NCBI GenBank assembly: GCA_005893305.1
Contig: VBOZ01000029.1
Location: 169,072-233,071 of the forward strand
Direction: 5' to 3'
Length of the DNA stretch: 64,000 nucleotides
Source: Candidatus Eiseniibacteriota bacterium
GTDB lineage: Bacteria > Eisenbacteria > RBG-16-71-46 > SZUA-252
The translations under genes and the position numbers were made by a program. A model generated the notes under the pieces. It ran no database searches and had not been told where the DNA came from. It saw only the letters and a program-made list of their open reading frames with translations. Below are positions 2,551 through 15,690 of this stretch, one piece after another; the first letter of the stretch is position 1, and each line of letters starts with the position of its first letter.

Positions 2551-4638
2551 TTATTTCGTAAGCGTTAGCTTCAGCACCGCGGACAGCTCCCTGTCGCCGA
2601 GCACCTGATCCGTCCTCACGAAGTAGATGCCCGACGAGACCGGCTCGCTCCGGTCGTTCGCGCCGTTCCACCACACTTCATGCGTGCCCGCCGTCGTCAT
2701 CTCTCCATGCTTCAGCGTCCGAATCAGGCGGCCGTCGATCGAGAAGATTCGCAGCGTAACCGGCCCCGCGCTGTTCACCGTGTACGAGATCGCCGTCTCC
2801 GGGTTGAACGGGTTCGGCGAGGCGGATGCGTGGATCGGCGCCGAGCTGTGGGCCGTGCGAACGGTGACCGTCTTCACGCCGCGGAGCGGCGCGGTGCCCG
2901 ACGAGGTCTCGACCTCTCCGGTGACGATGATGTTCGCCGTGGTGTTGTTCGGAGCCCCATCGAAGAGATCCCTGACACACGATTCGGCGAAGCTGATCAT
3001 GTAATCAGGTACACCATTCAGATTCATGTCGCCGAGAGTACTCGTGCCGGCCTTGATCTCGGCCGCGCACTCGGTGACGGTGCCGGGGGTAGGGTAGTCG
3101 GTCGTCAGGCGGAGTGAGGTGGCGACAATGGACGAGTAGGGGACCATGGCCTGCTCGACGGCCACCTTCGTGTATCCCCTCACCTTCCTGGCATCGAGGA
3201 CGGTTCCGTTGTTCTTGGCGATGATCGCGACCGGGACGTCGGATCGGACCGTGGCCGTCGTGGGGTCGTCGTCGGAGAGGCCGCCCGTGTCGGTGACCTG
3301 GAGGATTACCGGGAAGACGCCCTCCGCCGCGTAGGCATGCATGGGGGTCGGGCCCGTGGCCGTCCTGCCGTCTCCGAAGTCCCAGGCGTACGCCAGCGCG
3401 TCGCCGTCCGGGTCGGACGAGCCGGTACCGATGAACTCGATGCTCTGATTGACGAGCCCGGCGTACGGCCCTCGCGCGTTCGCCACCGGATAGCGGTTCC
3501 GAATGTTGAGCATTACGGCCACGGAATCGGCTCCTCGCAGGTTGGTGACAAGATCGAGCCGCCCGTCGCCGTCTAGATCTGCCGGCGCGGTGAACCCAGG
3601 AGGACCTCCCGCCGCGCACGCAACCTGGCCGTTTGTTCGGCCATCACCGGCCCCGAGGAAGACTTCGATGGCGTTCGGATTGGTGACCACAAGATCCAAG
3701 TGCCCGTCGCCGTTGAAGTCCCCCTTGGCAATATCATCTGTAGAGGATGACCCCCACTGGATGGGCTGCCCGAAACTACCGTCGCCATTGCCTAAGAGGG
3801 TAGCCATGACATCGATGTCGAAAACTCTCGTCGCCAGGTCCGTCTTACCGTCCCCGTTCAAGTCCCCGACCGCGATGATGTACGGTTCGCCGCCGGGGCG
3901 CGCAAGGGAGATTGCCGCGCCCCCGCAGCCCCGAAAGCTGCCGTCGCCATTCCCACACAACACAGTGACTCCACCGCCCTTCGGATACGCGAGGTCCTGA
4001 TTCGAGTCTCCGTTGAAATCAGCGACGGCGAGCGAATAAACCGGCCATCCCATATCGTTGTCCATCCTCGCGCCGAACGTGCCGTCTCCGTTTCCTAGGA
4101 AAATAGACAGGATGCCCCAGCCGGCCACGATGGCGTCCAGTTTTGAGTCGCCGTTTAGATCGGCTACCGCTAAGAGGAATGGCGATTGGCCGTAAACGCC
4201 CGCTCTCGTGGCGTAGTCGGTCCTTGGGCCGAACGACCCGTCCCCGTTGCCGAGGAGGACAGAGAGGGCCGAGCCGCTCAGAATCAGCAAGTCGAGCTTC
4301 CCGTCCTGGTTTAGATCACCCATCCGGAGCGAGCCGGTGACGCCCGTTGGATAGTCCACGTGCGCCCCGAAAGCCCCGTTTCCGGTGCCCAGGAGGACAG
4401 AGACGCTGTTCGCGTGCGACGTGACGAGATCCAGCGTACCGTCCCCATTGAGATCTCCCACCTCGACGTGGCTGGGTTGGGACCCTGTTGCGTAGTGCGC
4501 CGGCGCTGCGAACGGCTGGCCCGGCGCTCGGCTTGGAGAGAGTCCGATCAGGGAGACGGAGAAGAGCAGGATGGCGGATAGCGTGTGGTTCCTCGGCTCG
4601 CCCCCCGCAGGGCGGCGCCGATTGGAGAAACCGATCAT
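2551..4638 (-). CDS. Secreted FG-GAP/VCBS-repeat protein with a PKD-like domain and a C-terminal FlgD-Ig-like/T9SS-type sorting domain (tandem paralog)
   Basis: Full-length paralog of 294-2360, co-linear with it. The internal Met (MIGFSNRRR...) matches the paralog N-termini; the track ORF runs to 4725. Confidence 0.8.
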   Translation of the reverse strand: MIGFSNRRRPAGGEPRNHTLSAILLFSVSLIGLSPSRAPGQPFAAPAHYATGSQPSHVEVGDLNGDGTLDLVTSHANSVSVLLGTGNGAFGAHVDYPTGVTGSLRMGDLNQDGKLDLLILSGSALSVLLGNGDGSFGPRTDYATRAGVYGQSPFLLAVADLNGDSKLDAIVAGWGILSIFLGNGDGTFGARMDNDMGWPVYSLAVADFNGDSNQDLAYPKGGGVTVLCGNGDGSFRGCGGAAISLARPGGEPYIIAVGDLNGDGKTDLATRVFDIDVMATLLGNGDGSFGQPIQWGSSSTDDIAKGDFNGDGHLDLVVTNPNAIEVFLGAGDGRTNGQVACAAGGPPGFTAPADLDGDGRLDLVTNLRGADSVAVMLNIRNRYPVANARGPYAGLVNQSIEFIGTGSSDPDGDALAYAWDFGDGRTATGPTPMHAYAAEGVFPVILQVTDTGGLSDDDPTTATVRSDVPVAIIAKNNGTVLDARKVRGYTKVAVEQAMVPYSSIVATSLRLTTDYPTPGTVTECAAEIKAGTSTLGDMNLNGVPDYMISFAESCVRDLFDGAPNNTTANIIVTGEVETSSGTAPLRGVKTVTVRTAHSSAPIHASASPNPFNPETAISYTVNSAGPVTLRIFSIDGRLIRTLKHGEMTTAGTHEVWWNGANDRSEPVSSGIYFVRTDQVLGDRELSAVLKLTLTK

Positions 4639-4754
4639 GTCAGCCCCCCAGGCCAATCGGGAGCGGCCGCCCGGCGGATCCCCCGACCCCCACGGCCGTT
4701 CCTCGACGTTGGTTTCCTTCGCCACTTGAGTGTAGGACGGGCCGCCGGGGAGGA

Positions 4755-4905: not shown

Positions 4906-6105
4906 TTGGAGATCATGGTGAAGTGGATACTCTCAGCCCTGCTTACGGTTGTCGCGGTCGCAGGCCTCACGCAAGCGGCGGATGCGCAGTACATGTACAT
5001 GGACGCGAACGGGAACGGGGTTCATGACACGGGCGATCGGCTGAACGCGAACAACGACTCGACCTTCGTGGATATCTACTTGAGCACGACGCTGAACCGC
5101 AACGGGAGCGCGGTCACCTGCAATACCCTGCCCGCTGCCGCGATGGACATCAACTCGTACGCCTTCAGCATCGTGGCGACCGGCGGCACCGTGACGTATG
5201 GGACCTACGTCAACCGGCAGCCGGCTGCGTTCCCGAACCACGCAGAGGTGCTGAACCCGGGGGACGGGACGTACAAGGACGCGTTCTACTCGTTCTCCTA
5301 TACGCCGGGGGGCCTATTTAGGCTTGGGACGTTGACGATCACCGGCACGAGCGGGGCTCCCGCGATCACATTTGTGGATTTGATCACTGGGGCCCAGGAC
5401 TATACGTCGTTCGGGACGGAGTGTCCTGGGATAGGCGGCGACAACACGTACCGGCTGGACGGGCCGAACACGCAGGCCTTCTACGGCGTCCCTGGGGACT
5501 GGTTCGACACCGACGGCCTCGCCCGGAGCACGACCGCGGTCTCCGTCGCGCTCCAGGACGCGCAGGCCGAGGCAGGGCTTGTTCGCCTTCGCTGGATCGT
5601 CCCGGACGCGCGGAGCTCGGTCTCGATGGTGGAGCGGCGTACCGCGATCAGCGATTGGGCGACTCTGGGGCAGGCCGACGTGGAGAGCGGCGGCTATGTC
5701 CGTTACGAGGACCGGTCGGTGACCCCGGGCGAGCGCTACGCGTACCGGCTCTTCGTCCAGTCTCCGACGGACAATGGGTATTCGAACGAGGTATGGGTCT
5801 TGGTGCCCTCGGACGCGGCTGCTCCGCTCGCATTGCAGCTCGACCCCGTCTACCCGAATCCGTTCCAAACCGAGACCCGGTTCAACTTCGCGGTTCCTCG
5901 GTCCGGATCCGTCCGGCTGACCATATTCGACGTGCGCGGACGACGGGTCGCGACGGTTGTGGAGCGCGCGTTGCCCTCGGGTTGGCGCTCCGTGGCATGG
6001 AATGGCAGGGACCACTTGGGCAGGCCCGTTCCGTCGGGCACGTACTTCGCCAAGCTGGAACAGGCCGGAAAAGTCCAGATGCGGAAGATCGTCGTCGCGA
6101 GGTAA
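4906..6105 (+). CDS. Secreted hypothetical protein with a fibronectin-III-like segment and a C-terminal FlgD-Ig-like/T9SS-type sorting domain
   Basis: Signal peptide MEIMVKWILSALLTVVAVAGLTQAADA. C-terminus reads DPVYPNPFQTETRFNFAVP..VRLTIFDVRGRRVATV...WNGRDHLGRPVPSGTYFAKL. Confidence 0.75.
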   Translation: MEIMVKWILSALLTVVAVAGLTQAADAQYMYMDANGNGVHDTGDRLNANNDSTFVDIYLSTTLNRNGSAVTCNTLPAAAMDINSYAFSIVATGGTVTYGTYVNRQPAAFPNHAEVLNPGDGTYKDAFYSFSYTPGGLFRLGTLTITGTSGAPAITFVDLITGAQDYTSFGTECPGIGGDNTYRLDGPNTQAFYGVPGDWFDTDGLARSTTAVSVALQDAQAEAGLVRLRWIVPDARSSVSMVERRTAISDWATLGQADVESGGYVRYEDRSVTPGERYAYRLFVQSPTDNGYSNEVWVLVPSDAAAPLALQLDPVYPNPFQTETRFNFAVPRSGSVRLTIFDVRGRRVATVVERALPSGWRSVAWNGRDHLGRPVPSGTYFAKLEQAGKVQMRKIVVAR

Positions 6106-6135
6106 CGCCGGGGCCGCATCTCAGCGGCAGCGCCG

Positions 6136-6900
6136 CTAGGCGCCGTACAGCCCGTTCGAGCTGAACGGATACCCCTGGCCGTCGCGGAAGAGCATCCTTT
6201 GGAGCGAGACCTCCCGCGCGCTCGGCTCCACGAGCTGGTCGGGGAAGAGGATCGTCTGTCCGACCTCCACGGCGACGATATCCGTCTTCCCCACACCACA
6301 TAGGTGGCTGCCCCAAGCCTCGCCACCCTCGCCGAACATGCAGCGAATCAGGATTCCGCGGCCGAAGACGAGCTTCCCGCCGATGGTCGTGCACCGCGTG
6401 GAATATCTCCCGTCGGTCGTAATCTCCGCCACGAGCGTGGCGGGCACGCGGACGGATAGCCCGAATTCACGCGGCTCGCCGTCTTCCTGGCGCCCCAGGT
6501 TGCAGGCTTCGGCCAGCGGTGCACCCGAGGAATCGCGTATCTGAATCTGCAGAGGCGAGTGCCGGGTAATTCGAAGCGGCGGAGTCGACGATGCCGCCAC
6601 GAACCATTCACCCGGAGGGATGAGGATGGCCTCGGTCGCGATGCTCCCGCCATCTCGGTTGGCATGCTTCTTGGCAAACGTGAGCATCGCGCTGACCCCC
6701 GGCAGCACGATCGCCCCTTCGAGGGTCAACGTAGAGCCAAGCGGAGCGCCATGACCCGCCTCGCGGATCGAGGCCTGCACCTGAAGCGGCATCGAGACGT
6801 TCGCGGCGATCCGAACCGTCCGGTTGACATCCGGGTCCCGGTGGGGGATCCGGCGAAACGCGGGCGCTATCGACTGAGACATCACGTGGGTTGACATCAT
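6136..6900 (-). CDS. Hypothetical protein B of a duplicated two-gene cassette; paralog of 8043-9002; faint PilZ-like motif arrangement
   Basis: 254-aa ORF lying 9 nt downstream of A. Residues shared with B' include SMP.QVQ, TL.GA.VL, LIPPGEWF, TIGG.LVF.RGIL..CM and IGQT...PDQ. An RRIPHR motif is followed about 37 aa later by TLTLEGAIV. Confidence 0.65.
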   Translation of the reverse strand: MMSTHVMSQSIAPAFRRIPHRDPDVNRTVRIAANVSMPLQVQASIREAGHGAPLGSTLTLEGAIVLPGVSAMLTFAKKHANRDGGSIATEAILIPPGEWFVAASSTPPLRITRHSPLQIQIRDSSGAPLAEACNLGRQEDGEPREFGLSVRVPATLVAEITTDGRYSTRCTTIGGKLVFGRGILIRCMFGEGGEAWGSHLCGVGKTDIVAVEVGQTILFPDQLVEPSAREVSLQRMLFRDGQGYPFSSNGLYGA

Positions 6901-6909
6901 GACTGGCTC

Positions 6910-7752
6910 CTAATGAACGGGATACGCCGGCGCCACGGTGGAAGTGGAAGCCGTGACGCAACCGTTTTGCATCTCGGCGAGGCCCGGCTGCGCCCTTCCC
7001 AGGAGCGACTCGCCTCCCGTGATCTGCCCGATCCCATCCAGGAATGCGAGGTAGATCCAGGAGTCTCGGCCCAGTGGGGACCGAAGCGGCCGCGGGGGAA
7101 GATGAATGATGGTGTCGTCCGGGACGAGCGGCACTTCGACGGCCGCCTCCTGCTGGCCCGCGTCGACTCCCGATGAGTCGCTCGGCGACAGCGTGAGCCG
7201 GGCCCTGATGCCGGACCGGATGGAGACGTCGCCGGACATCGCGAGGTCGGAGATCGGATTCAGATCGAACACCTCGCCCCTGACGACCATCGCGTCGACG
7301 AAGAGGTTGAGTGGAAGAGACGGGTTCAGGTCGAACGGCCCCTGATCGCACCGGCCCAAGCGGGTCCGGGGGGCGAGCGGGGATCCGCCGCCGACGTACT
7401 GGATCCAGAGATCCGGTGGACGCCCCACTTCCGCCCAGTCGAGTGCCTGAGGCTGAATCGACAGGGATCGGTCGTGGAGGAGCGCGATCCGCTCGCTGGA
7501 TGTTTCCTCGAGCGGAAGGGAAGTGCCGCGCTCGACCCTGCGGTAAGTCAGCCGCGCGCCGAATCCACCGGCCTTGATCGTGCCTCCCACCGTCACGCGC
7601 CCGCCCGGTCCGCCGCGGAGCGCGCCCGGGCTCATCGTGGGCTCGATGTGCAGGGCCATGGGGATCGTGACCGGCACGAATCGCATGATCCGCAGTACAG
7701 CTGAACTCGTCACGTCCAAGGGTTGCTCGCGCTGCGTGATCACCCTTGCCAT
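6910..7752 (-). CDS. Hypothetical protein A of the duplicated two-gene cassette; paralog of 9018-9917
   Basis: Start MARVITQ is preceded by AAGGAG. Residues shared with A' include LRIMRF.PVTIP, VGGTI.A.GFGARLTY, SERIALLHDR, GRPPDLWIQ, TRLGRCDQGPFDL and PIGRDSWIY. The track ORF extends to 7995, probably as a read-through artefact. Confidence 0.7.
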   Translation of the reverse strand: MARVITQREQPLDVTSSAVLRIMRFVPVTIPMALHIEPTMSPGALRGGPGGRVTVGGTIKAGGFGARLTYRRVERGTSLPLEETSSERIALLHDRSLSIQPQALDWAEVGRPPDLWIQYVGGGSPLAPRTRLGRCDQGPFDLNPSLPLNLFVDAMVVRGEVFDLNPISDLAMSGDVSIRSGIRARLTLSPSDSSGVDAGQQEAAVEVPLVPDDTIIHLPPRPLRSPLGRDSWIYLAFLDGIGQITGGESLLGRAQPGLAEMQNGCVTASTSTVAPAYPVH

Positions 7753-7843
7753 TGTGTGTCTCCTTTCATCACCTGGCGATTCGGCCGCCAACCGCTCCTC
7801 GTCCCCATACGGAAGGAAGTATCGCCACGGGGAGAAGGAGCCG

Positions 7844-7882
7844 CCATTCGATGGATTGCGGACTTGAGGATGAAAAACTACG
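7844..7882 (-). promoter_or_regulatory. Copy (b) of the conserved intergenic element (CCATTCGATGGATTGCGGACTTGAGGATGAAAAACTACGG) between B' and A
   Basis: About 95-130 nt upstream of the A start codon. The downstream ATACTTCCTTCCGTATGG also matches the sequence around the TPR gene start codon (ATACTTCCTTACGTATGG). Confidence 0.5.
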
Positions 7883-8042
7883 GATGGTTCGGGTTGCGAT
7901 TTGCAAGGAGAACGCGGGCCGAGTTGGCGAATGCGATGAAGATCGCGCCCAAAAGGGGTGAGCGCCGGATGCTTGGTCGCCACTCCCGACGACATGGGTC
8001 ATCCGGCGCTCCGGAAGGCATCCATTTTTTGCGAGTTTCAGA

Positions 8043-9002
8043 TCAAATAGAACCACCTCCTCTCCAAGGTTTCCCGTTCCGAGCACCCGCGCGAGGGACG
8101 AATCGCCCCAGGGGGTGCCCGAGTCCGTCCAAGAAGGAGATCGCGCGCAACGGATGAGCGGGTGTCGTCCTCGACATCGGCTGATCGGGGATGCGAACAG
8201 TCTGGCCGATCGGAATCGCAACGGCTTCGGTGGCGGCGACCAGGGGCTCGTCGTCGTACCGATCCGGCTCGCGCCACGGATACATGCAGTGCGCGAGGAT
8301 GCCGCGGAGAAACACGAGGTTGCCGCCAATGGTGGACCGAGAGCTCGGCACGAGAGACAAGGTGTCTGTCGCGATCTCCACCGTCACCGCCACGGGGACG
8401 TGGAAGGAAAGCGCGAATCCATGCGGCTCTCGGTCACAAGGTCCGACCTCGCAGGTCTCGGAGATGCGGGTGCCGTCCCCGTCGTGGAATCGAATGCGGA
8501 TCGGCGCACCGGGATCGATCGGGGCGCGGCTGGCCGCCGCCGCGACCGTGAACCATTCGCCGGGCGGGATCAGCGTCATCGTGTTCTGTTTGAAGCGGTC
8601 CGCGTTGAAATGACTCTGGTGGGCGTCCCGTCCGAAGCTGAGTACCGCAGCCAGCCCCGCGAGGACGACGGCGCCATCCAGGGTCACCCGGAACCCATGG
8701 GGATCGTGGCATTCCGTGAGGCGGACCGATCCCTGTACCTGTACGGGCATCGAGAGAGCAGCGGAGAAGCGCAGCATCCGAGACCGGTCCGAGCCGGGGT
8801 GAATTCTCTGTCGGTTCGATTCAGGTACGAGTGGGTGCGCCGCGTGCATTCTCTCCATGAGTCCTCCCGTTCCTATCGCGAATGCGTGAGCTCCATCTCT
8901 CGCATCGATCAATCTTCCGTGGCGATGCAGCCGGCGGTTCCGGTCTCGTGGGCGCGTAGCCCCGCTGGGGACACTCGGAGAGCTATAGGTCGGGTCCGCC
9001 AC
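8043..9002 (-). CDS. Hypothetical protein B' (paralog of 6136-6900)
   Basis: Clear paralogy to B. The true start may be the internal MERMHAAHP (about 8858), which has a GGGAGG ribosome-binding site; the longer track ORF begins 15 nt after the A' stop. Confidence 0.6.
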   Translation of the reverse strand: MADPTYSSPSVPSGATRPRDRNRRLHRHGRLIDARDGAHAFAIGTGGLMERMHAAHPLVPESNRQRIHPGSDRSRMLRFSAALSMPVQVQGSVRLTECHDPHGFRVTLDGAVVLAGLAAVLSFGRDAHQSHFNADRFKQNTMTLIPPGEWFTVAAAASRAPIDPGAPIRIRFHDGDGTRISETCEVGPCDREPHGFALSFHVPVAVTVEIATDTLSLVPSSRSTIGGNLVFLRGILAHCMYPWREPDRYDDEPLVAATEAVAIPIGQTVRIPDQPMSRTTPAHPLRAISFLDGLGHPLGRFVPRAGARNGKPWRGGGSI

Positions 9003-9017
9003 ACGGGTTCCTGGACG

Positions 9018-9917
9018 CTAGCGACCGCCACGGTCCAAATGCGTCCTCCTCTCCAGCAGCCCGTCCGGGCTGACCAATGAGCTTTCCACGACGCCGGGCT
9101 CCGCTTTCCCGAGTAACGACTCTCCGCCCGTCGGCCGGCCCGCTCCGTCCAGAAACGTGACGTAGATCCAGGAATCGCGCCCGATCGGCCCGTGCAGCAT
9201 CCGCCGCGGCAGCTGGACCTCGGTGCCGCCTGGAAACAACGACACATCGGCAGGCGTGGTCGGATCGCCCGGCCTCGGGGCCGGACCGCCGTTCTCGGTG
9301 AGGGTGAATCGCGCGACGATTCCGGTCCGGATGCAGATCTCCCCGGCCAGGGCGAGCATCGGCATGGAATAGGGATCGGATCTCTCCGGTCTCAGGATGG
9401 CTGCGTCCACGGAGATTCCCAGGGTGAGGTTTGGGGTCAGGTCGAATGGACCTTGGTCGCAACGGCCCAGGCGGGTGAGGCCCGTGACCGGGGTGCCTCC
9501 GCCGTCGAGGAACTGGATCCAAAGATCCGGAGGACGGCCCGCGACGGGGCGGTCCACGGCTCGCGGCGGGAGCGTCAGGGTCCGGTCGTGAAGGAGAGCA
9601 ATTCGCTCGCTGGTGACCTCATCGGCCGGCGTGGTGCCGCTTCCACGTTGGCGATAGGTAAGCCGGGCGCCGAAGCCTTCGGCCGTGATTGTTCCCCCCA
9701 CCGCGACGCGCACGCCCGGTCGGACGACGAGAGTTCCGGAGTTGACCTTGGGTTCAATGCGCATCGGCACCGGAATCGTGACGGGCATGAATCGCATGAT
9801 CCGAAGGGCGACGACGCCCGAATCCCGCGGGGATCGTCCTCGATGCGTCGAAAATTCATCCATGATGGAACTCCCTTTCCCGGCTGGCGGGCCTCCCCGC
9901 CTATCTTGCGTTTTCAT
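9018..9917 (-). CDS. Hypothetical protein A' (paralog of 6910-7752)
   Basis: 299-aa ORF. Its start overlaps the 3' end of the upstream sugar-transferase gene by about 17 nt, suggesting translational coupling. Confidence 0.7.
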   Translation of the reverse strand: MKTQDRRGGPPAGKGSSIMDEFSTHRGRSPRDSGVVALRIMRFMPVTIPVPMRIEPKVNSGTLVVRPGVRVAVGGTITAEGFGARLTYRQRGSGTTPADEVTSERIALLHDRTLTLPPRAVDRPVAGRPPDLWIQFLDGGGTPVTGLTRLGRCDQGPFDLTPNLTLGISVDAAILRPERSDPYSMPMLALAGEICIRTGIVARFTLTENGGPAPRPGDPTTPADVSLFPGGTEVQLPRRMLHGPIGRDSWIYVTFLDGAGRPTGGESLLGKAEPGVVESSLVSPDGLLERRTHLDRGGR

Positions 9918-10644
9918 CGTTTGCCAGCACCTGAATCGTCCTGGCCATGATCTTCAGATCGAGAAGGAAGCAGTAGTTTCGGATGTAATGGATGTCGTAG
10001 CGCAACTTCCGCCGTGCCGCCCTCGTCGACTGCGTGTAGCCGTTGCTGACCTGCGCGAGGCCGGTGATGCCGGGCTTCACGGTGCAGCGACTCGAAAAGC
10101 CCGGGATCTCCTTGTCCAGCTTGGCCAGGAAGATCGGCCGCTCGGGGCGTGGACCGACGACGCTCATCTCGCCTCGAAGCACATTCCAGAACTGGGGCAG
10201 CTCGTCGAGGTGCGTGCGACGGAGAAACGCCCCGACGCGAGTCACTCTCGCGTCGTTCGTGGCCGCCCAGACCGGCCCCGTCTCCTGCTCCGCGTTCGCG
10301 ACCATGCTCCGGAACTTGAACATCAGAAACGGACGGCCGCGGAGCCCGGCCCGTTCCTGCCTGAAGAGGACCGGTGAGCCCGATTCCAGCCAGATCGCCA
10401 CGGCGACCACGACGTAGATCGGGAGGAGCGCCACGAGGCAAGTCACCGCGATCACGAGATCGACGGCTCGCTTCGCGAGATCCCTCTCCTTCGGGTGTGC
10501 AAGCCTCCACGGCCGTCCCGCGGCAGTCACCGCTGCATTGTTTGGCTCGGTTCCCATACTCTTGGAGACGATAGGAACGGGACGCCGGGCGAGCCATTCG
10601 GTGATACCCCGATTCGCCGAGGGGAAAATTACGGAGGCGGGCAT
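9901..10644 (-). CDS. Polyprenyl-phosphate sugar phosphotransferase (initiating bacterial sugar transferase, WbaP/EpsL-type C-terminal catalytic domain)
   Basis: Contains the family's core PVLFRQERAGLRGRPFLMFKFRSM...ELPQFWNVLRGEMSVVGPRP, with one transmembrane helix upstream. Its start ATG overlaps the TPR gene stop (TGATG). Confidence 0.85.
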   Translation of the reverse strand: MPASVIFPSANRGITEWLARRPVPIVSKSMGTEPNNAAVTAAGRPWRLAHPKERDLAKRAVDLVIAVTCLVALLPIYVVVAVAIWLESGSPVLFRQERAGLRGRPFLMFKFRSMVANAEQETGPVWAATNDARVTRVGAFLRRTHLDELPQFWNVLRGEMSVVGPRPERPIFLAKLDKEIPGFSSRCTVKPGITGLAQVSNGYTQSTRAARRKLRYDIHYIRNYCFLLDLKIMARTIQVLANDENAR

Positions 10645-11372
10645 CAGCGCACCTCCGATGCGCGGAGCGCGCGCAGAAGCGTCCGCTCCAACGCGGGGTT
10701 GCCCAATCGCTGCGCGAGCGAGATGCCCAACGCGAGCGTCCGCGTGTCATCAGGCCGGAGCTCCATGGCGAGCTGAAACGCTGAGTACGCTTCGCCGAGT
10801 CGGCCGTCCTCCAGCGCCATGCCCAGGATCCCCGTCGCGATCCACTCGAAGTCGGGCAGGAGCGATCCGGTGCGCTTGAGGTCGGCCAGGGCCGCTCCGT
10901 AGTTCCGATCCAGCTCATGGGCGAGCGCGCGCAACGCATAGAGCTCGGGCGCGGCTCCCGACCGTCGGAGCGGCGGCGTCAGCGCCGCCGCGGCGCGGGC
11001 CGGATCTCCAACCAAGCAGCTCACTCGACCCACCAGCATGGCCGCCTCGGAGTTCAAGCTGTCGACGGCGAGCGCCCGCTGCCCCCAGTCCAGCGCCGCC
11101 GAGTCGTCACCGAAGTTCTCGTACAGAGAGGCGACTCGAGACAACGCGTAGCTCGAGTGGGGATCCAGCGTGACGAGGGACACGGCCCAGGCGATCGCCT
11201 TCAAGCCATCGCCTTTCGCCGCCGCCAGCTCGGAGCGGACCTGACACTCGATCGGGGTCGGAGGATCTGCCGCCGACGAGGACGCGCCGGCGGCGATGGC
11301 CGTGGCCACGAGGGCCGGCACCATGGCCGCTTTCCATCCACCGTTGAAGCTTTGTTTGCGCCCGGTATCCAT
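10644..11372 (-). CDS. Secreted tetratricopeptide-repeat (TPR) protein
   Basis: Signal peptide AAMVPALVATAIAAGASSSAAD followed by TPR-like helical repeats (A..Y...G....A......AL). Confidence 0.7.
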   Translation of the reverse strand: MDTGRKQSFNGGWKAAMVPALVATAIAAGASSSAADPPTPIECQVRSELAAAKGDGLKAIAWAVSLVTLDPHSSYALSRVASLYENFGDDSAALDWGQRALAVDSLNSEAAMLVGRVSCLVGDPARAAAALTPPLRRSGAAPELYALRALAHELDRNYGAALADLKRTGSLLPDFEWIATGILGMALEDGRLGEAYSAFQLAMELRPDDTRTLALGISLAQRLGNPALERTLLRALRASEVR

Positions 11373-11407
11373 ACGTAAGGAAGTATTGCGGCAGATGCGT
11401 CGCGCCC

Positions 11408-11447
11408 ACCATTCGGTGGACTACGGCCCGGGATAGGAAAAACTACC
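11408..11447 (-). promoter_or_regulatory. Copy (c) of the conserved intergenic element (CCATTCGGTGGACTACGGCCCGGGATAGGAAAAACTACC) between the response-regulator stop and the TPR start
   Basis: About 40-75 nt upstream of the TPR ATG. Contains a CCACC-ATTC-GGTGG hairpin. Confidence 0.5.
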
Positions 11448-11509
11448 TAGTGGGGAAGAGGGGGAGGGAGGGACGAGGCTTGAGGGCAAAAAAACGGCCG
11501 TGCGGAGGG

Positions 11510-12142
11510 CTAGGGGATGATGAGGCCCCTTCGTATCGCGTAGCGGACCAACCCGGCGGTCTCGTGGATGTCGAGCTTCTCCATGATATGAGCCCGGTGT
11601 GCCTCGACGGTCCGCGCGCTGATATCGAGCGCTACGCCGATCTCCTTGGACGACCGGCCCTCCGTGATGAGCTGCAGCACCTCGCGCTCCCGCGGGGTCA
11701 AGGGGTCGTCCGGCAAATCGACCTTGGAGATGCAGGCCTCTACGACCGCCTTGGAAATGCCGGGGCTCAGATAGACCGAGCCCTGGGCGACCTCGCGGAT
11801 GGCCTGCACTAGGTGCGCGGTCGCCTGCGTCTTGAGGAGGTACCCGCGGGCGCCGGCCCGAAGCGCCTCGATGACGTAGGGGTCCTCCGTGTGCATCGTG
11901 AGGACGATCACGCGCGTCTCGGGCGAGCACTGAAGGACGCTTCGCGTCGTCTCGAGCCCGTTCAGCTGAGGCATGCCCAGGTCCAGCACCGCGATGTCGG
12001 GCTTCAACTCCTTGGCCAGGCGGACGGCCTCGCGGCCGTCCGGAGCGGATCCGACGACCTTGAAGCCTTCCGCGTTGAGAAGTGTGGCCAGGCCGTCCCG
12101 GATCACGGCGTGGTCATCGGCCAAAAGGACGCTCTCACGCAC
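11510..12142 (-). CDS. NarL/LuxR-family response regulator (REC + HTH_LuxR)
   Basis: Receiver motifs LLADDH...D (phospho-acceptor Asp in DIAVLDLGMP) and a C-terminal LTPREREVL.L...G.S.KEIG..L.IS..TVE.H LuxR helix-turn-helix. Start overlaps the histidine-kinase stop. Confidence 0.9.
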   Translation of the reverse strand: MRESVLLADDHAVIRDGLATLLNAEGFKVVGSAPDGREAVRLAKELKPDIAVLDLGMPQLNGLETTRSVLQCSPETRVIVLTMHTEDPYVIEALRAGARGYLLKTQATAHLVQAIREVAQGSVYLSPGISKAVVEACISKVDLPDDPLTPREREVLQLITEGRSSKEIGVALDISARTVEAHRAHIMEKLDIHETAGLVRYAIRRGLIIP

Positions 12143-13073
12143 GGATCGTCTCCAGCGGGATCGTCACCAGGAGCTCCGTTCCCTTGCGCTCGCCGGATTG
12201 GATCTCCAGTGTCCCCGAGAGCGGAGCGATCCGCTCGCGAATTCCAATCAATCCCAGACCGCGGCCCCCTTGACGCGTGCCCTTGGCCGCGGGGGGAAGC
12301 CCCACCCCGTCGTCGCGGATCGAGCATCGAACCAGGCCGTCCTCGTGCAGCAGCGTGATCGTGACGCGAGAGGCCTGGGCGTGCCGGGCCGCGTTGTTCA
12401 GCGCTTCCTGGACGATCCGATAGAGCGTCGTCTCGACGACCGGCGGCAGCCGTTCCTCGGTCGAGCCCTTGACGATGACGGCAATCCCCGCGCGCCGGGA
12501 AACTCCGTCCCCCAGGAACTGGATCGCGGGGACGAGGCCCAGGTCGTCGAGGATCAGCGGGCGGAGCTCGTGCGAAATCCGGCGGAGCTGCTCCTCGATC
12601 CGATCCAGAAGGCCGCGCACGTCTTTGAGCCGCTGCCTCGACGAAGGAGCGAGGTCGCGGCCGACCTCGTGGAGGGCGAGGTGAACCGAGGCCAGAAGCT
12701 GCCCGGCGTCGTCGTGGAGCTCGCGCGCGATCCGCTGCACCTGCTCCTCGAGGATCTCATTGATCCGTCGAAGCGCCGAGTTGGCGTCGCTTACCCCGCG
12801 ATGGGCCATCTCGAACGGCGAGAACGACTCCCGCGCGAAGCCCTCCGCGGCGCGGAGGATTGCCCCGAACTTCTCGGGAATGCCCGCCTCCTGGCAGACG
12901 GCGAGGAGCGCGGCGTGCTGGAGCGCGGCCATCTCGAGCGCGCCGACTCCGGAAGCGAGCGCCTCTCGGCCCAGCTCGTACGCCGCGTTGAGGGACGCTT
13001 CGCCTCCGCCGGCGACATGCCCGCGGAGTGCGGCCGCGTACCGCGATTCGAATGCAGGCGTGCCGTTATTCAT
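12135..13073 (-). CDS. Cytoplasmic sensor histidine kinase (HisKA_3 + HATPase_c) with an RsbU_N-like N-terminal domain
   Basis: H-box ELHDDAGQLL and an ATPase region with N, G1 and G2 boxes. The N-terminal ~100 aa (AAYELGREALASGVGALEMAALQHAALLAV) resembles the RsbT-binding N-domain of RsbU. ATGA overlap with the upstream phosphatase gene. Confidence 0.8.
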   Translation of the reverse strand: MNNGTPAFESRYAAALRGHVAGGGEASLNAAYELGREALASGVGALEMAALQHAALLAVCQEAGIPEKFGAILRAAEGFARESFSPFEMAHRGVSDANSALRRINEILEEQVQRIARELHDDAGQLLASVHLALHEVGRDLAPSSRQRLKDVRGLLDRIEEQLRRISHELRPLILDDLGLVPAIQFLGDGVSRRAGIAVIVKGSTEERLPPVVETTLYRIVQEALNNAARHAQASRVTITLLHEDGLVRCSIRDDGVGLPPAAKGTRQGGRGLGLIGIRERIAPLSGTLEIQSGERKGTELLVTIPLETIRA

Positions 13074-13687
13074 CGTCCGGGCTCCGTGAAGGATGCTACC
13101 ACCACGAGCGCGTCGTCCGACTTCTTACCGTGGCGGGCCAGGATGAGGTCGGCGATGTGCTTTGGCGGCGCGCCGGGCGAGATCAGCTTCGTGAATCCGT
13201 GGGAGATTCCGTCGGTGGTGAAGACCAGGGTGTCTCCTTGCCCGATCGGCAGCACGGTGCCGCTCAGCGCCGGCAGCCGGCTCCCGACCACGCCGGCGCG
13301 ATTCACCAGCCCCTCCGACCGGGGCCGGAAGGTCGGATCCCCGCGGAAGAGGGTGCCCTCCACGTTCCCGACGCCGGACCAGGACAGGAAGCCTTCCGAC
13401 GGTCGAATCGACGCGACGCTCACGGCCGCGCCCCGCGTGCTCCGGAGCGCGTCGTGGCACATGCGCAAGAGCGAGATCGGTCGCTCCCCGGCGTGCTTCG
13501 CCAAGAGCTTCGCTGCGACCGCCACGGCGGCGCCCGCCTCGCGTCCATGGCCGGCACCATCCAGAACCGCGATCATGATTCCGTCCGCGAACGGTTGGAC
13601 GACGCAAAGATCCCCCGACTCCGCGGCGTCGTTCAGCGGGCGGTGCGCGACGGCCCACTTCATTGAGAGCGCTGTCACGGTTTCCAT
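13070..13687 (-). CDS. PP2C/SpoIIE-family serine phosphatase (RsbX-like feedback phosphatase)
   Basis: Carries the SpoIIE/PP2C signature D.GHG (VLDGAGHG...VFTTDGI). At 205 aa it has only a catalytic domain, like RsbX. Confidence 0.8.
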   Translation of the reverse strand: METVTALSMKWAVAHRPLNDAAESGDLCVVQPFADGIMIAVLDGAGHGREAGAAVAVAAKLLAKHAGERPISLLRMCHDALRSTRGAAVSVASIRPSEGFLSWSGVGNVEGTLFRGDPTFRPRSEGLVNRAGVVGSRLPALSGTVLPIGQGDTLVFTTDGISHGFTKLISPGAPPKHIADLILARHGKKSDDALVVVASFTEPGR

Positions 13688-14121
13688 TTTTTTGCCGTTA
13701 CCGTGGTGCCGACGCCAAGCTGGGAGACGATCTCCATCTCGTCCATGAGCCGCTTGACTCCGGGCAACCCCAAGCCCAATCGCCCTGCGGTGGAATATCC
13801 GTCCTGGAGGGCCTGGCGGACGTCCGCAATTCCCGCTCCTTCGTCCTTGGCCACGACGGTCAGGCCGCGCTTCCCGTTCAGCTCGATCGGGATCAGCCGG
13901 ATCTCGCCCCGCTTCGCGTACGTCACGATGTTCCGGGCGAGCTCGGAAATGGCCGTGGCGATCAGGGTCGCGTCTCCGGGCGAGAAGCCGATCCCCAAGG
14001 CGAGCTCGCGACCCTTTTGGCGAGCGGCGACGATGTCAGCTTCGGTTACGAGCGGCACGCCCTGCTCCGGCGACCCCGATGGGGCGGATGAATTGTTGTC
14101 CGAACTCGCCGATGTGCTCAT
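13675..14121 (-). CDS. RsbT/RsbW-like serine kinase (GHKL ATPase, anti-sigma regulatory factor fold)
   Basis: Contains TAISELARNIV, DEGAGI and GLGLPGVKRLMDEM. ATGA overlap with the upstream STAS gene. Confidence 0.8.
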   Translation of the reverse strand: MSTSASSDNNSSAPSGSPEQGVPLVTEADIVAARQKGRELALGIGFSPGDATLIATAISELARNIVTYAKRGEIRLIPIELNGKRGLTVVAKDEGAGIADVRQALQDGYSTAGRLGLGLPGVKRLMDEMEIVSQLGVGTTVTAKKWKP

Positions 14122-14486
14122 CGCTTCGCCGGCGGCTTGGTGTTCGCGTCGAGATAGGCAAGACCTTCCTCCAGATCGAGCGTGGTCGCGACAGCTCCGA
14201 GGGTCAGGCCCATCTGGACCATCGCCATGGCGACCTCGGGTTGGATTCCGACGATGACCGTCTTGGCGCCCCGCAGGCTGATCATCCGGGAGATATCACC
14301 CAGCACGCGGGTGCCGAAGGAGTCCATGACGTCGAGTGCCGCGACGTCCACGATGACCCCCTGGGAGCGGTGCTGGCCGACGGACTTCATCAAGACGTCG
14401 CGGAAATGGAGCAGGTCCGTGTCCGAGAGCGCCGCCTGGATCGAGGCGATCAGGTAGGCGCCCTGCTTCAGAATCGGGACTTCCAC
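14118..14486 (-). CDS. STAS-domain protein (RsbS-like anti-sigma-factor antagonist)
   Basis: 122-aa STAS fold with the conserved phosphorylatable Ser/Thr region (VDVAALDVMDSFG). Confidence 0.8.
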   Translation of the reverse strand: MEVPILKQGAYLIASIQAALSDTDLLHFRDVLMKSVGQHRSQGVIVDVAALDVMDSFGTRVLGDISRMISLRGAKTVIVGIQPEVAMAMVQMGLTLGAVATTLDLEEGLAYLDANTKPPAKR

Positions 14487-14527
14487 AGATGCGATCCTTT
14501 GATTTAGGTCGAGTGGTGCCGCGTCCC

Positions 14528-15421
14528 CTAGGCGGCTTCGGATTCCCTCATGGGAAGGACCTTGTACCCGAGGAGACGCTCGGCCTCCTCGATGCCTCCC
14601 TGAAGATCTCCCACCGTCGTCATCTTGCCGAGATCCACGCCGATGTTGACGAGGGTCTGAGCGATCTCCGGCGAGAGACCGGTCACGATGACGGTCGCGC
14701 CGAGGAGTCGCGCCGACTCGACGGTCAGAACCAGGTGATTCGCGACGTTGGCGTCCATGGCCGCGACGCCGGTGATGTCGATCACGACGACCTTGGCTCG
14801 GTTCGTCCGGATGCCCCGCAGAAGCTGCTCGGTGAGCTGGCGCGCCCGCGCCGGATCGATGAGGCCGATGATCGGAAGAATCAGCAACCGCTCGCGGACC
14901 TGCAGAACGGGCGTGGACAGCTCTCGAATGGCCTCCTGCTGCTCGCGGATGACGCGCTCCCGCTCCTGCACGAAACCGACGGCCACCGTGATCGCGATGC
15001 GGTTCGCGGCCGGCTCATAGGCGTCGAGGATGCGATTCAGCGGGGCGAAGTCGGCGTGGTACTTGGCGAACAGCGATCGCGCCAAGACGTCGCGCAGGAG
15101 AAGCACGATGCCGACGACCTCGTGCGTTTCCACTCCTCGCGGGATGATCCGTTCCGAGAGGTTTCGCGCGTAAGCTTGAAGAGCTTCAAGGGTTCCCGTC
15201 TCCAGGGCGAGGACGTAGCTATCGTAGACGGAGGTCGCTTCCGCGAAGATCTCCTCTTTCGTCATCGCGGTCAGGAGCTCGGCGACGCTGATCCGCCGTA
15301 CCCATTCCTCGCGAAGCTTCGTGCGGTTCTGTCTCAAATGTGAGACGAGCTCGCGCAGGAGCGCGGGATTCTCGTCCTGAGTCGGGGGAGCGAAGGTGAC
15401 TTTGACAGCGCTGTCCGTCAT
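14528..15421 (-). CDS. RsbR-like stressosome sensor (N-terminal non-haem globin-like sensor domain + C-terminal STAS)
   Basis: 297 aa. The C-terminal STAS region (VVVIDITGVAAMDANVANHLV...ATVIVTGLSPEIAQTL) matches RsbR-family proteins. It is the first gene of the translationally coupled Rsb-like operon. Confidence 0.75.
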   Translation of the reverse strand: MTDSAVKVTFAPPTQDENPALLRELVSHLRQNRTKLREEWVRRISVAELLTAMTKEEIFAEATSVYDSYVLALETGTLEALQAYARNLSERIIPRGVETHEVVGIVLLLRDVLARSLFAKYHADFAPLNRILDAYEPAANRIAITVAVGFVQERERVIREQQEAIRELSTPVLQVRERLLILPIIGLIDPARARQLTEQLLRGIRTNRAKVVVIDITGVAAMDANVANHLVLTVESARLLGATVIVTGLSPEIAQTLVNIGVDLGKMTTVGDLQGGIEEAERLLGYKVLPMRESEAA

Positions 15422-15690
15422 GAGATCCTCCTCCTAATGTGTTGCACGATTCAGACGCACTCATGGCGACCGGAACGCCCCACGCGCATCCGCATGTATT
15501 ATTTTAATATGAGCATCGGCCGGGCCTGCAATTAGATAATCGTAAAAACACTGATACGTGATGGGACAGTTTCGGGGCCGCGAATCGCATCTCTCGACCC
15601 ACTCCGCAGATACGCGAAAATGTAGTTGTTTGGCCTACAAGCGCGAGGCGGAGATTTGCGCGGTGACGGACATTTCACGGAGGTGACACG

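What the first reader, a model, noticed from the sequence alone, without database searches (positions are those of the whole stretch)
6136..11372. Tandemly duplicated two-gene cassette of unknown function (A-B, A'-B'), co-transcribed with a TPR protein and an initiating sugar transferase
Six co-oriented genes (TPR, sugar transferase, A', B', A, B) are linked by overlapping or near-overlapping junctions. Those junctions are TGATG between TPR and the transferase, a ~17-nt overlap between the transferase and A', and a 9-15 nt gap between each A and B. A/A' (~280-300 aa) and B/B' (~255-320 aa) are clear paralog pairs; I recognise no family for either. Both show only a faint PilZ-like arrangement: A has LRIMRF then xVTVGGTI about 30 aa later, and B has RRIPHR then TLTLEGAIV about 37 aa later. 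If these are degenerate PilZ-like folds, they could be c-di-GMP (or other ligand) receptors attached to a glycan-initiating enzyme. Exopolysaccharide systems such as Alg44 and BcsA use PilZ in this way. Strict pairing, duplication and coupling to a glycosyl-phosphotransferase make this the best candidate in the window for an undescribed module.
Basis: partly seen in the sequence, partly recalled or inferred. Interest (0 to 1): 0.8.

Follow-up and report, generated by a model that had tools for sequence, protein, structure and literature searches.

The report
Stress-relay-linked quartet of unnamed β-sandwich proteins
Four related genes of an unnamed protein family sit directly behind a bacterial stress-sensing relay and next to a sugar-chain-starting enzyme in an uncultured soil bacterium; they are not the c-di-GMP (PilZ) receptors first suggested, but look like the relay's dedicated, still uncharacterised output.

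Summary
The six minus-strand genes are real. A'/A (51% identity) and B'/B (36%) are paralogue pairs. A and B are also homologous to each other (24%, E 6e-8). Each protein is a tandem of two ~110-aa all-β domains.

All four belong to one unnamed family (264 clusters at 50% identity) with no Pfam, NCBIfam or PDB match. Typical members are signal-peptide or lipoprotein proteins of soil bacteria and archaea. The Eisenbacteria branch has lost the signal peptide and most cysteines.

The conserved feature is the wiring. In 7 of 8 lineages the signal-less genes lie directly downstream of a stressosome (RsbR-S-T-X), a HisKA_3 kinase and a NarL-type regulator. A shared promoter-like element precedes them, with two copies here: before TPR and before A. 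Polysaccharide genes accompany them in most lineages but not all (PGT+TPR here, Wza-Wzc-Wzy clusters elsewhere).

Best reading: non-enzymatic, probably cytoplasmic A:B adaptor proteins that are the dedicated output of a stress relay tied to envelope polysaccharide production. The molecular function is inferred, not shown.

The parts
14528..15421 (-). RsbR-like stressosome sensor (N-terminal domain + STAS), first gene of the upstream signalling operon
   Evidence: PF01740 STAS E 1.4e-14. Same gene order in L001, L003, L004, L006 and L088.
14118..14486 (-). RsbS-like single STAS protein
   Evidence: PF01740 E 3e-13.
13675..14121 (-). RsbT-like serine kinase (HATPase_c_2)
   Evidence: PF13581 E 7e-13.
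13070..13687 (-). RsbX-like PP2C/SpoIIE phosphatase
   Evidence: PF07228 E 2e-10.
12135..13073 (-). Histidine kinase: weak RsbU_N-like N-terminus + HisKA_3 + HATPase_c
   Evidence: PF07730 and PF02518 hits. RsbU_N scores 20.2 bits, below the 25.5 cut-off, and is flagged 'weak' in the orthologues of L004 and L006.
11510..12142 (-). NarL/GerE-type response regulator
   Evidence: PF00072 E 3e-30 and PF00196 E 1e-20. It lies directly upstream of the signal-less family genes in 7 of 8 lineages.
11368..11446 (-). Promoter/operator-like element, copy 1: GTAGTTTTTC...CCACCGAATGG...ATACTTCCTTACGTATGG
   Evidence: The strict pattern occurs exactly twice in 64 kb, with 0 expected. Orthologous copies are in L001, L002, L003, L006 and L007. 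A core of the type CCSRATGG-N19-CTAnnnT is seen by eye in sister loci L089, L091, L094, L088 (two copies), L006 and, with a one-base variant, L090; L004 also deviates by one base (CCCAATAG), L092 carries only a distant variant, and none was found in L095. The window's own lineage has N21-22 and ATACTT instead.
10644..11372 (-). Exported TPR protein (signal-peptide-like N-terminus MVPALVATAIAAGASSSA)
   Evidence: TPR_2 E 1.9e-6. Weak partial match to PrsT TIGR02917, 30.6 bits against a 312 cut-off. N-terminus read from the sequence.
9901..10644 (-). Small polyprenyl-phosphate glycosyl-phosphotransferase (initiating sugar transferase)
   Evidence: PF02397 E 2e-67. TIGR03025 302.3 bits, cut-off 295.55.
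9018..9863 (-). A' (281 aa): A-type two-domain β-sandwich protein, no signal peptide
   Evidence: Start set from the homologue length of 281 aa and a GGGAG Shine-Dalgarno sequence. Independent profile of secreted members gives E 5.6e-35. AF2 pLDDT 83, pTM 0.77.
8859..9017 (-). Conserved non-coding A'-B' spacer with predicted stem-loops
   Evidence: Conserved in L003, L001 and L006, with indels that break any reading frame. 35 predicted pairs, 7 of them with compensatory changes.
8043..8858 (-). B' (271 aa): B-type two-domain β-sandwich protein
   Evidence: Homologues are 271 aa and a GGGAGG Shine-Dalgarno sequence is present. Independent profile gives E 5.3e-22. AF2 pLDDT 77, pTM 0.72.
7951..8011 (-). 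Terminator-like hairpin after B' (12-bp outer stem GAGCGCCGGATG/CATCCGGCGCTC, then ACCCCTTTT)
   Evidence: -41.2 kcal/mol, z -2.46, 3 of 200 shuffles fold as well. Conserved in L003 and L001, with a U-A / U-G / C-G change at one pair. It fails the simple terminator scan because the loop is long.
7801..7906 (-). Palindrome TTGCAAATCGCAA (7894-7906) and promoter/operator-like element, copy 2 (7801-7881)
6910..7752 (-). A (280 aa): A-type paralogue
   Evidence: 51% identical to A'. AAGGAG Shine-Dalgarno sequence. Independent profile gives E 4.8e-29.
6136..6900 (-). B (254 aa): B-type paralogue, 9 nt after A
   Evidence: 36% identical to B'. AGGAG Shine-Dalgarno sequence. Independent profile gives E 1.4e-13. 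The stop-to-stop ORF leaves no room for a signal peptide.

Best explanation
A', B', A and B are four paralogues of one unnamed protein family. Each is a tandem of two homologous ~110-residue all-β (Ig/C2-like sandwich) domains.

Typical family members are Sec- or lipoprotein-exported, cysteine-paired proteins of soil bacteria and archaea. The Eisenbacteria branch lost the signal peptide and most cysteines, so it is probably cytoplasmic. It split into A-type and B-type proteins that occur as adjacent pairs, and the pair was duplicated here.

These genes are the dedicated output of the relay encoded directly upstream. Stress releases the RsbT-like kinase from an RsbR/RsbS stressosome. RsbT acts on the HisKA_3 kinase, whose N-terminus weakly resembles RsbU_N. 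That kinase phosphorylates the NarL-type regulator. The regulator switches on two units that carry the same promoter/operator-like element: TPR-PGT-A'-B' and A-B.

The proteins keep no catalytic-type residues. I take them to be non-enzymatic A:B binding or scaffold proteins that act together with membrane-bound envelope-polysaccharide synthesis (the PGT here, Wzx/Wzy-type clusters in sister lineages).

Shown: homology, domain architecture, loss of the signal peptide, synteny, and the shared upstream element.
Inferred: control by the regulator, cytoplasmic location, A:B pairing, and the link to polysaccharide function.
For: Family and architecture:
- One family: A' vs B' E 6e-8.
- A profile built only from secreted members hits all four proteins, E 1e-13 to 6e-35.
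- Two-domain repeat.
- AF2 models are all-β and two-domain.
- In the A+B alignment the conserved columns are G, P and hydrophobic residues, together with R21, R24, C135 and one Asp in the FLDGxG turn. No catalytic-type set is evident.

Breadth:
- 264 representative clusters.
- 78 genomic loci in Gemmatimonadota, Verrucomicrobiota, Thaumarchaeota and others, nearly all with signal peptides.
- Signal-less members form one clade in a rough NJ tree without support values and have fewer cysteines, median 3 against 5.

Wiring:
- The regulator lies directly upstream in window/L001-3, L004/5, L006/7, L088, L089, L091 and L095.
- The element occurs exactly twice in the window, before TPR and before A. 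A related core is seen before family genes in most sister lineages examined, including L090, which lacks an adjacent regulator.
- A terminator-like hairpin lies between B' and A.

Polysaccharide link:
- PGT+TPR here.
- Unnamed gene-Wza-Wzc-BY kinase-PGT-Wzy-GT clusters in L004 and L089. L096 shows the start of the same cluster (unnamed gene-Wza-Wzc) and L094 only its first gene.
- A PGT remnant in L006.

Precedent: stressosomes that feed two-component outputs instead of sigma-B are described for Vibrio vulnificus (PMC9237108, PMC4976288).
Against: - No experiment or transcript data exist. The promoter/operator reading of the element and its control by the regulator are inference.
- The RsbU_N match on the kinase is below Pfam's cut-off.
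- No hairpin terminator follows the regulator gene, so read-through from the signalling operon is possible.
- Polysaccharide genes are absent next to the family genes in L088, L093 and L090. The glycan link is therefore frequent but not obligatory.
- Some signal-less clades keep several cysteines and share a conserved N-terminal leader (xxAFxxPG) of unknown meaning. Export by an unknown route is not excluded.
- A:B complex formation was not testable here.
Confidence: 0.45

Rival explanations
1. Degenerate PilZ-like c-di-GMP (or other nucleotide) receptors that couple second-messenger levels to the initiating sugar transferase.
For: - EPS systems often use PilZ receptors (established knowledge: Alg44, BcsA).
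- The genes sit next to a PGT.
- An RxxxR-like string occurs in B.
Against: - No PilZ HMM hit for the four proteins or for 69 relatives.
- The motifs are not conserved across A/A'/B/B' alignments.
- The family's ancestors are secreted proteins.
- In sister loci an MshEN-type c-di-GMP motif lies in the BY-kinase gene.
Confidence: 0.03
2. Accessory or feedback components of the signalling pathway itself, for example proteins that bind the kinase, the regulator or the stressosome and tune the relay. On this view they have no direct role in polysaccharide synthesis.
For: - The only near-invariant neighbour is the regulator gene (7 of 8 lineages).
- In L088 and L006 the family genes are the only genes that follow the relay.
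- No catalytic-type set of residues is conserved.
- Paired paralogues suggest protein-protein interaction.
Against: - The genes have their own conserved promoter-like element. One case (L090) lies away from any regulator yet keeps a one-base variant of the element's core, which looks more like a target than a pathway component.
- Four copies in one locus is unusual for a stoichiometric signalling partner.
- The family's origin among secreted proteins does not suggest a signalling adaptor.
Confidence: 0.2
3. Stress-induced surface or matrix proteins exported by a non-classical route. Together with the PGT-initiated glycan they would build a protective coat or biofilm matrix (Ig-fold matrix proteins in the manner of RbmA or Bap).
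For: - Typical relatives are exported.
- The genes are adjacent to EPS export genes in sister loci.
- Signal-less clades I-III share a conserved N-terminal leader that could be a targeting signal.
Against: - None of the four has a signal peptide, lipobox, transmembrane segment or T9SS-type C-terminal domain, although neighbouring genes do carry such C-terminal domains.
- Loss of the family's cysteine pairs together with the signal peptide fits a move to the reducing cytoplasm.
Confidence: 0.15
4. Decaying, functionless copies of a formerly secreted protein gene that happen to sit in this locus.
For: - The signal peptide and the conserved cysteines are lost.
- The B-type copies are the most divergent.
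Against: - The ORFs are intact and have Shine-Dalgarno sequences.
- Third-position differences are 2-3 times second-position differences, at rates like the PGT and TPR genes.
- Both models are confident folds.
- Arrangement and upstream element are retained across several diverged lineages.
Confidence: 0.03

Closest known systems
Stressosome modules with non-sigma-B outputs (RsbR-RsbS-RsbT-RsbX followed by a two-component system, e.g. Vibrio vulnificus VvD1/VvD2; Pané-Farré 2005 as cited in PMC9237108)
   Same: Same upstream gene set and order: RsbR-like STAS, RsbS, RsbT-like kinase and PP2C phosphatase, then a sensor kinase and a response regulator (PMC9237108, PMC4976288).
   Different: - The kinase here is HisKA_3 with only a sub-threshold RsbU_N-like N-terminus.
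- The regulator is NarL/GerE-type.
- The genes that follow (TPR, PGT and four unnamed β-sandwich proteins) have no counterpart in the described systems.
- Nothing here has been tested experimentally.
PilZ-domain c-di-GMP receptors of exopolysaccharide machines (Alg44, BcsA)
   Same: Small β-rich proteins or domains encoded beside polysaccharide synthesis genes.
   Different: There is no sequence, motif or fold match. A and B are tandem 8-stranded sandwiches derived from a secreted family.
The unnamed secreted two-domain family (motifs CxNxPGP ... NNxKGTH ... PKQPxxGGVGGNPxI ... LGRC) found in Gemmatimonadota, Verrucomicrobiota, Thaumarchaeota and other soil MAGs
   Same: Clear homology (profile E 1e-13 to 6e-35). 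Same length, and the same tandem of two homologous domains.
   Different: - The window proteins lack the signal peptide or lipobox, the cysteine pair in each domain, the KGTH histidine and the GGVGGNP loop.
- They are multiplied and tied to a stress relay. The secreted members stand alone without conserved neighbours.
- The secreted family itself has no known function.
Two-sandwich or Ig/C2-like binding proteins: bacterial arrestin-like Spo0M (5cl2), C2 domains, macroglobulin MG domains, PmoD/AmoB cupredoxin-like domains

Membership tests
PilZ domain (PF07238) | Match to the PilZ profile HMM | tested here: not met
   No hit at E ≤ 1 for the four proteins. None among 69 family members at E ≤ 5.
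PilZ domain (PF07238) | Conserved RxxxR and (D/N)xSxxG c-di-GMP-binding motifs | tested here: not met
   LRIMRF is RxxR. RIPHR occurs only in B and is not kept in B' or other B-type proteins. The downstream strings lack D/N-x-S-x-x-G.
PilZ domain (PF07238) | Six-stranded β-barrel fold similar to solved PilZ structures | tested here: not met
   [not shown]
PilZ domain (PF07238) | Binds c-di-GMP | not testable with these tools
   Needs DRaCALA or ITC on purified protein.
Unnamed secreted two-domain family (PKQP-GGVGGNP / LGRC proteins) | Full-length match to a profile built only from secreted members | tested here: met
   A5 profile: A' 5.6e-35, A 4.8e-29, B' 5.3e-22, B 1.4e-13, each covering both domains.
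Unnamed secreted two-domain family (PKQP-GGVGGNP / LGRC proteins) | Two tandem homologous ~110-aa all-β domains | tested here: met
   hhalign of domain 1 against domain 2: E 7e-10 in the A/B group, 2.4e-50 in typical members. DSSP of both models.
Unnamed secreted two-domain family (PKQP-GGVGGNP / LGRC proteins) | N-terminal signal peptide or lipobox | tested here: not met
   None of the four has a hydrophobic N-terminal segment. The stop-to-stop ORFs leave no room for one.
Unnamed secreted two-domain family (PKQP-GGVGGNP / LGRC proteins) | One conserved cysteine pair per domain | tested here: not met
   A-type proteins keep only the LGRC cysteine of domain 1. B' keeps it and B has lost it.
Stressosome + two-component output module | RsbR-like STAS, RsbS STAS, RsbT-like kinase and PP2C phosphatase in one operon | tested here: met
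   Pfam hits for window ORFs 15421-13070, all on the minus strand and overlapping or abutting.
Stressosome + two-component output module | RsbT-docking RsbU_N-type domain on the downstream kinase | tested here: inconclusive
   PF08673 scores 20.2 bits against a 25.5 cut-off. It is flagged 'weak' in the orthologues of L004 and L006.
Stressosome + two-component output module | The downstream genes (TPR, PGT, A/B) are transcriptionally controlled by the response regulator | not testable with these tools
   Only indirect evidence: adjacency in 7 of 8 lineages and a shared upstream element.
Polyprenyl-phosphate glycosyl-phosphotransferase (Bac_transf) | Match above the curated cut-off to PF02397 and TIGR03025 | tested here: met
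   PF02397 226.6 bits (cut-off 27). TIGR03025 302.3 bits (cut-off 295.55).
Wzx/Wzy-type exopolysaccharide gene cluster | Wza/Wzc export proteins, a polymerase and further glycosyltransferases in the same locus | tested here: not met
   None within about 10 kb on either side, nor among 10 large ORFs sampled further along the window. They are present in sister loci L004 and L089, and partly in L096.

The most novel reading that the evidence does not exclude
A previously unrecognised domain family is widespread as a secreted protein in soil bacteria and archaea. One phylum has co-opted it as cytoplasmic A:B hetero-oligomers that are the physiological output of a stressosome-to-two-component relay. 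These proteins dock on, or scaffold, the membrane machinery that initiates and exports envelope polysaccharide. That would give a new class of stress-controlled EPS adaptor, and a defined target regulon for a stressosome that signals through a two-component system rather than sigma-B.
Probability: 0.25. Interest if true: 0.65.

Novelty: new variant of a known kind. Interest (0 to 1): 0.5.

Why it matters
What stressosomes control outside Firmicutes is largely unknown. Here a conserved, compact locus names concrete candidate targets: two promoter-like elements, a sugar-initiating transferase and four paralogues of one protein family. This makes the question directly testable.

The A/B family has no entry in Pfam, NCBIfam, PADLOC or PHROGs and no detectable relative in the PDB. 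It nevertheless comprises hundreds of sequence clusters across bacterial and archaeal soil lineages, including ammonia-oxidising Thaumarchaeota. Defining its fold and ligand would annotate many genes at once.

It also corrects a tempting but wrong PilZ annotation.

Tried and rejected
- PilZ reading: rejected.
- Anti-phage defence or phage origin: no PADLOC or PHROGs hits.
- Known RNA in the spacers: only one sub-threshold Rfam hit, outside the spacers, in 5800-15800 at E ≤ 1.
- Longest-ORF starts (A' 9917, B' 9002, A 7995): rejected on homologue lengths, Shine-Dalgarno sequences and frame-breaking indels.
- A conserved uORF at the ATG inside the element: rejected, because the ATG is absent in L003 and L006.
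- A conserved RNA hairpin at CCACCGAATGGTGG: rejected, because the pairing is not kept in the other copies.
- Hairpin terminator after the regulator gene: not found, only a T7 run.
- Sigma-70 consensus promoters in 5800-15800: none.
- Conserved neighbours of the secreted family members: none beyond lineage-specific synteny, with sporadic TetR, ECF sigma and CpxP-like genes.
- Sequence search of the family profile against PDB: nothing at E ≤ 10.
- The afdb50 fold library was not available.
With a tighter one it returned only 6 short metagenome loci.
- The third word-indexed protein search added few new proteins.

Full report
**Observation**

The region 6136-11372 holds six co-oriented minus-strand ORFs.
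- The first is a TPR protein (TPR_2 E 1.9e-6).
- The second is a small polyprenyl-phosphate glycosyl-phosphotransferase (PF02397 E 2e-67; TIGR03025 302 bits against a 295.6 cut-off).
- The two overlap by one base (TGATG).
- The other four are A', B', A and B.

A'/A are 51% identical (E 2e-84) and B'/B 36% (E 8e-42). None hits Pfam, NCBIfam, PADLOC, PHROGs or any PDB sequence. Comparison with orthologues in L003 and L001 shows third-position differences 2-3 times second-position ones, at about the rate of the PGT and TPR genes. These are therefore real genes under purifying selection.

**Corrections to the observation**

A and B are not two families. A' and B' align over 238 residues at 24% identity (E 6e-8). 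Each protein is itself a tandem duplication of a ~110-residue domain (hhalign domain 1 against domain 2: E 7e-10).

Three lines of evidence move the starts:
- Homologues are uniformly 281 aa (A-type) and 271 aa (B'-type).
- Good Shine-Dalgarno sequences precede ATGs at 9863, 8858, 7752 and 6900.
- The A'-B' spacer differs in length by non-multiples of three between orthologues (159, 167 and 156 nt).

The real gaps are therefore +37 nt (PGT-A'), 159 nt (A'-B'), 290 nt (B'-A) and 9 nt (A-B).

**What the proteins are**

A profile of the A+B alignment, searched against 1.84 billion representative proteins, finds 264 clusters at E ≤ 1e-3 (130 at E ≤ 1e-10). Most are 250-290 aa full-length matches.

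The more distant members have these features:
- Sec or lipoprotein signal peptides.
- Two repeats, each with the motifs CxNxPGP ... NNxKGTH ... PKQPxxGGVGGNPxI ... LGRC.

A DNA scan for the PKQPxxGGVGGNP motif in one genome per species found 78 loci. They lie in Gemmatimonadales (the majority), Verrucomicrobiota, Thaumarchaeota (Nitrosotalea, Nitrosopumilaceae), Bathyarchaeota, Thermoplasmata, Actinomycetota, Acidobacteriota, Polyangia and Betaproteobacteria. All are MAGs, and nearly all the genes have signal peptides.

A profile built only from 19 such secreted proteins hits A', A, B' and B at E 5.6e-35, 4.8e-29, 5.3e-22 and 1.4e-13. It hits nothing else in the window.

The window proteins have no signal peptide; B's stop-to-stop ORF leaves no room for one. 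They have also lost most of the family's cysteines. In a rough NJ tree (no support values) the signal-less proteins form one clade. Within it, A-type and B-type are separate subclades. The single A-B pair of L006 branches outside the A/A' split in the A-type subclade, while branching within the B-type subclade is unresolved. This fits an A-B pair that is older than the duplication seen here.

**Fold**

AF2 models of A' (pLDDT 83, pTM 0.77) and B' (pLDDT 77, pTM 0.72) are two all-β domains of about eight strands each.

- Foldseek against PDB gives nothing (best E 1.8e-3, TM 0.1).
- The AFDB library was unavailable.

In the A+B alignment the conserved columns are glycines, prolines and hydrophobic residues, together with two arginines (R21, R24), one cysteine (C135) and one aspartate in an FLDGxG turn. 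No catalytic-type set is evident. This argues for a binding or structural role, not an enzyme.

**PilZ**

PilZ is rejected.
- No PF07238 hit for the four proteins (E ≤ 1) or for 69 relatives (E ≤ 5).
- The fold is not a PilZ barrel.
- In sister loci an MshEN-type c-di-GMP-binding motif (NF053729, 43.6 bits, cut-off 38) sits in the tyrosine-kinase gene of the EPS cluster.

**Context**

Directly upstream, on the same strand, lie six signalling genes:
- an RsbR-like STAS protein
- an RsbS-like STAS protein
- an RsbT-like kinase
- a PP2C phosphatase
- a HisKA_3 histidine kinase with a sub-threshold RsbU_N-like N-terminus
- a NarL/GerE-type response regulator

This is a stressosome with a two-component output, a type described for Vibrio vulnificus (PMC9237108, PMC4976288).

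| Lineage | What follows the regulator |
|---|---|
| Window, L001, L002, L003 | TPR, PGT, then family genes as far as each contig reaches (all four in the window and L003) |
| L004/L005 | one family gene, an unnamed 389-aa protein, Wza, Wzz/GNVR, BY-kinase-like gene, then glycosyltransferases |
| L089 | same as L004, plus aminotransferase, PGT fusion, Wzy and GT4 |
| L006/L007 | a 52-aa remnant that looks like a PGT N-terminus, then an A-type and a B-type gene only |
| L088 | two family paralogues only |
| L091, L095 | a family gene (short contigs) |
| L090 | exception: the family gene follows an RtcB gene, not a regulator |

Other short contigs:
- L096 shows the family gene followed by the unnamed gene, Wza and Wzc; L094 shows only the family gene and the start of the unnamed gene.
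- L093 has no EPS genes downstream.

In total the regulator is the immediate upstream neighbour in 7 of 8 lineages. Polysaccharide genes accompany the family genes in most lineages but not all.

**Non-coding elements**

A strict pattern, GTAGTTT-N19-24-CAYCGAAT, occurs exactly twice in the 64-kb window, with 0 expected. The copies are at 11411-11446 (38 nt before the TPR start) and 7846-7881 (93 nt before the A start). It occupies the same positions in L001, L002, L003, L006 and L007.

By eye, a related core (CC[C/G][A/G]ATGG, 19 nt, CTAnnnT) lies in front of family genes in L089, L091, L094, L006 and, as two copies, in L088.
- L004 deviates by one base (CCCAATAG).
- L090 has a one-base variant (CCCCATGG) at the same 19-nt spacing, although it has no adjacent regulator.
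- L092 carries only a more distant variant, and I found no copy in L095.
- In the window's own lineage the spacing is 21-22 nt to ATACTT.

The position of the core relative to a TAnnnT-like box is what one expects for an activator site overlapping the -35 region. That is inference.

After B' there is a 12-bp-stem hairpin followed by CCCCUUUU (-41 kcal/mol, z -2.5). It is conserved, with one pair varying U-A / U-G / C-G. The A'-B' spacer is conserved and predicted to be structured. I therefore read the cassette as two co-regulated units, TPR-PGT-A'-B' and A-B, rather than one six-gene operon.

**Most likely mechanism**

Confidence is about 0.45 for the whole chain. It is higher for the wiring and lower for the molecular role.
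1. Stress perceived by the stressosome releases the RsbT-like kinase.
2. That kinase activates the HisKA_3 kinase.
3. The HisKA_3 kinase phosphorylates the NarL-type regulator.
4. The regulator activates both elements.
5. The cell then makes an exported TPR protein, a membrane PGT that starts a lipid-linked glycan, and four cytoplasmic, non-enzymatic β-sandwich proteins. These probably pair as A:B and act at or with the membrane polysaccharide machinery.

Rivals:
- Feedback components of the relay (0.2).
- Non-classically exported matrix proteins (0.15).
- PilZ-like receptors (0.03).
- Decaying genes (0.03).

**Novelty and verdict**

The signalling part is a variant of a known kind. The A/B family has no known relative of defined function in any library I could search.

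The key partner, the stress relay, lay outside the reported coordinates. Interest is moderate (0.5): this is a well-defined, testable, unannotated module, but its function is not established.

Noticed in passing
L089 6632-7792; L004 14260-14916: The BY-kinase-like gene of the sister EPS clusters carries an MshEN-type c-di-GMP-binding motif (NF053729 43.6 bits, cut-off 38, in L089; 18.8 bits in L004). It is a better candidate for c-di-GMP input than the A/B family.
   Followed up: partly
L006 8838-8996: A 52-aa ORF between the promoter-like element and the A-type gene reads ...KRVMKRVMDIAIASFCLSAPLPLF... It looks like the N-terminal membrane helix of a Bac_transf PGT, so it is probably a remnant of a lost transferase.
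   Followed up: partly
window 8859-9017: The 159-nt A'-B' spacer is conserved at nucleotide level in L003, L001 and L006 despite frame-breaking indels. It is predicted to form nested stem-loops, and 7 of 35 pairs have compensatory changes. No Rfam match.
   Followed up: partly
L004 10873-12042; L089 3062-4360; L096 563-1768; L094 1008-1247: An unnamed 389-432-aa protein always lies between the clade-I family gene and Wza. It has a signal-like N-terminus and no Pfam or NCBIfam match. It is a second uncharacterised family tied to these EPS clusters.
   Followed up: partly
[not shown]
   Followed up: no
P0092, P0099, P0101, P0104, P0210 etc.; L088 9099-9860 and 10001-10789: Signal-less clades I-III share a conserved ~30-aa N-terminal leader (e.g. 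GSLAFRLRG / SSLVFVPGT / AAFVPNG, then SE-x-R-V-S) ahead of the first sandwich domain. Its meaning is unknown.
   Followed up: no
window 294-2360, 2551-4725, 4906-6105, 43678-47805, 50670-53486: Several large FG-GAP/PKD or unannotated proteins end in FlgD_ig / T9SS-type C-terminal sorting domains. One of them (43678-47805) combines Peptidase_C25, FG-GAP and FlgD_ig. This fits an FCB-group organism that uses type IX-like secretion.
   Followed up: no
window 11488-11494: A run of seven T lies 16 nt after the response-regulator stop codon in a 65% GC genome, without a preceding hairpin (fold z +1.4). It could be part of the promoter region or a non-canonical terminator.
   Followed up: partly
L090 2-1501 and 1650-2429: One clade-III family gene follows an intein-containing RtcB-like gene instead of a response regulator. 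It still has a one-base variant of the promoter-like core (CCCCATGG-N19-CTAAGCT) upstream.
   Followed up: partly
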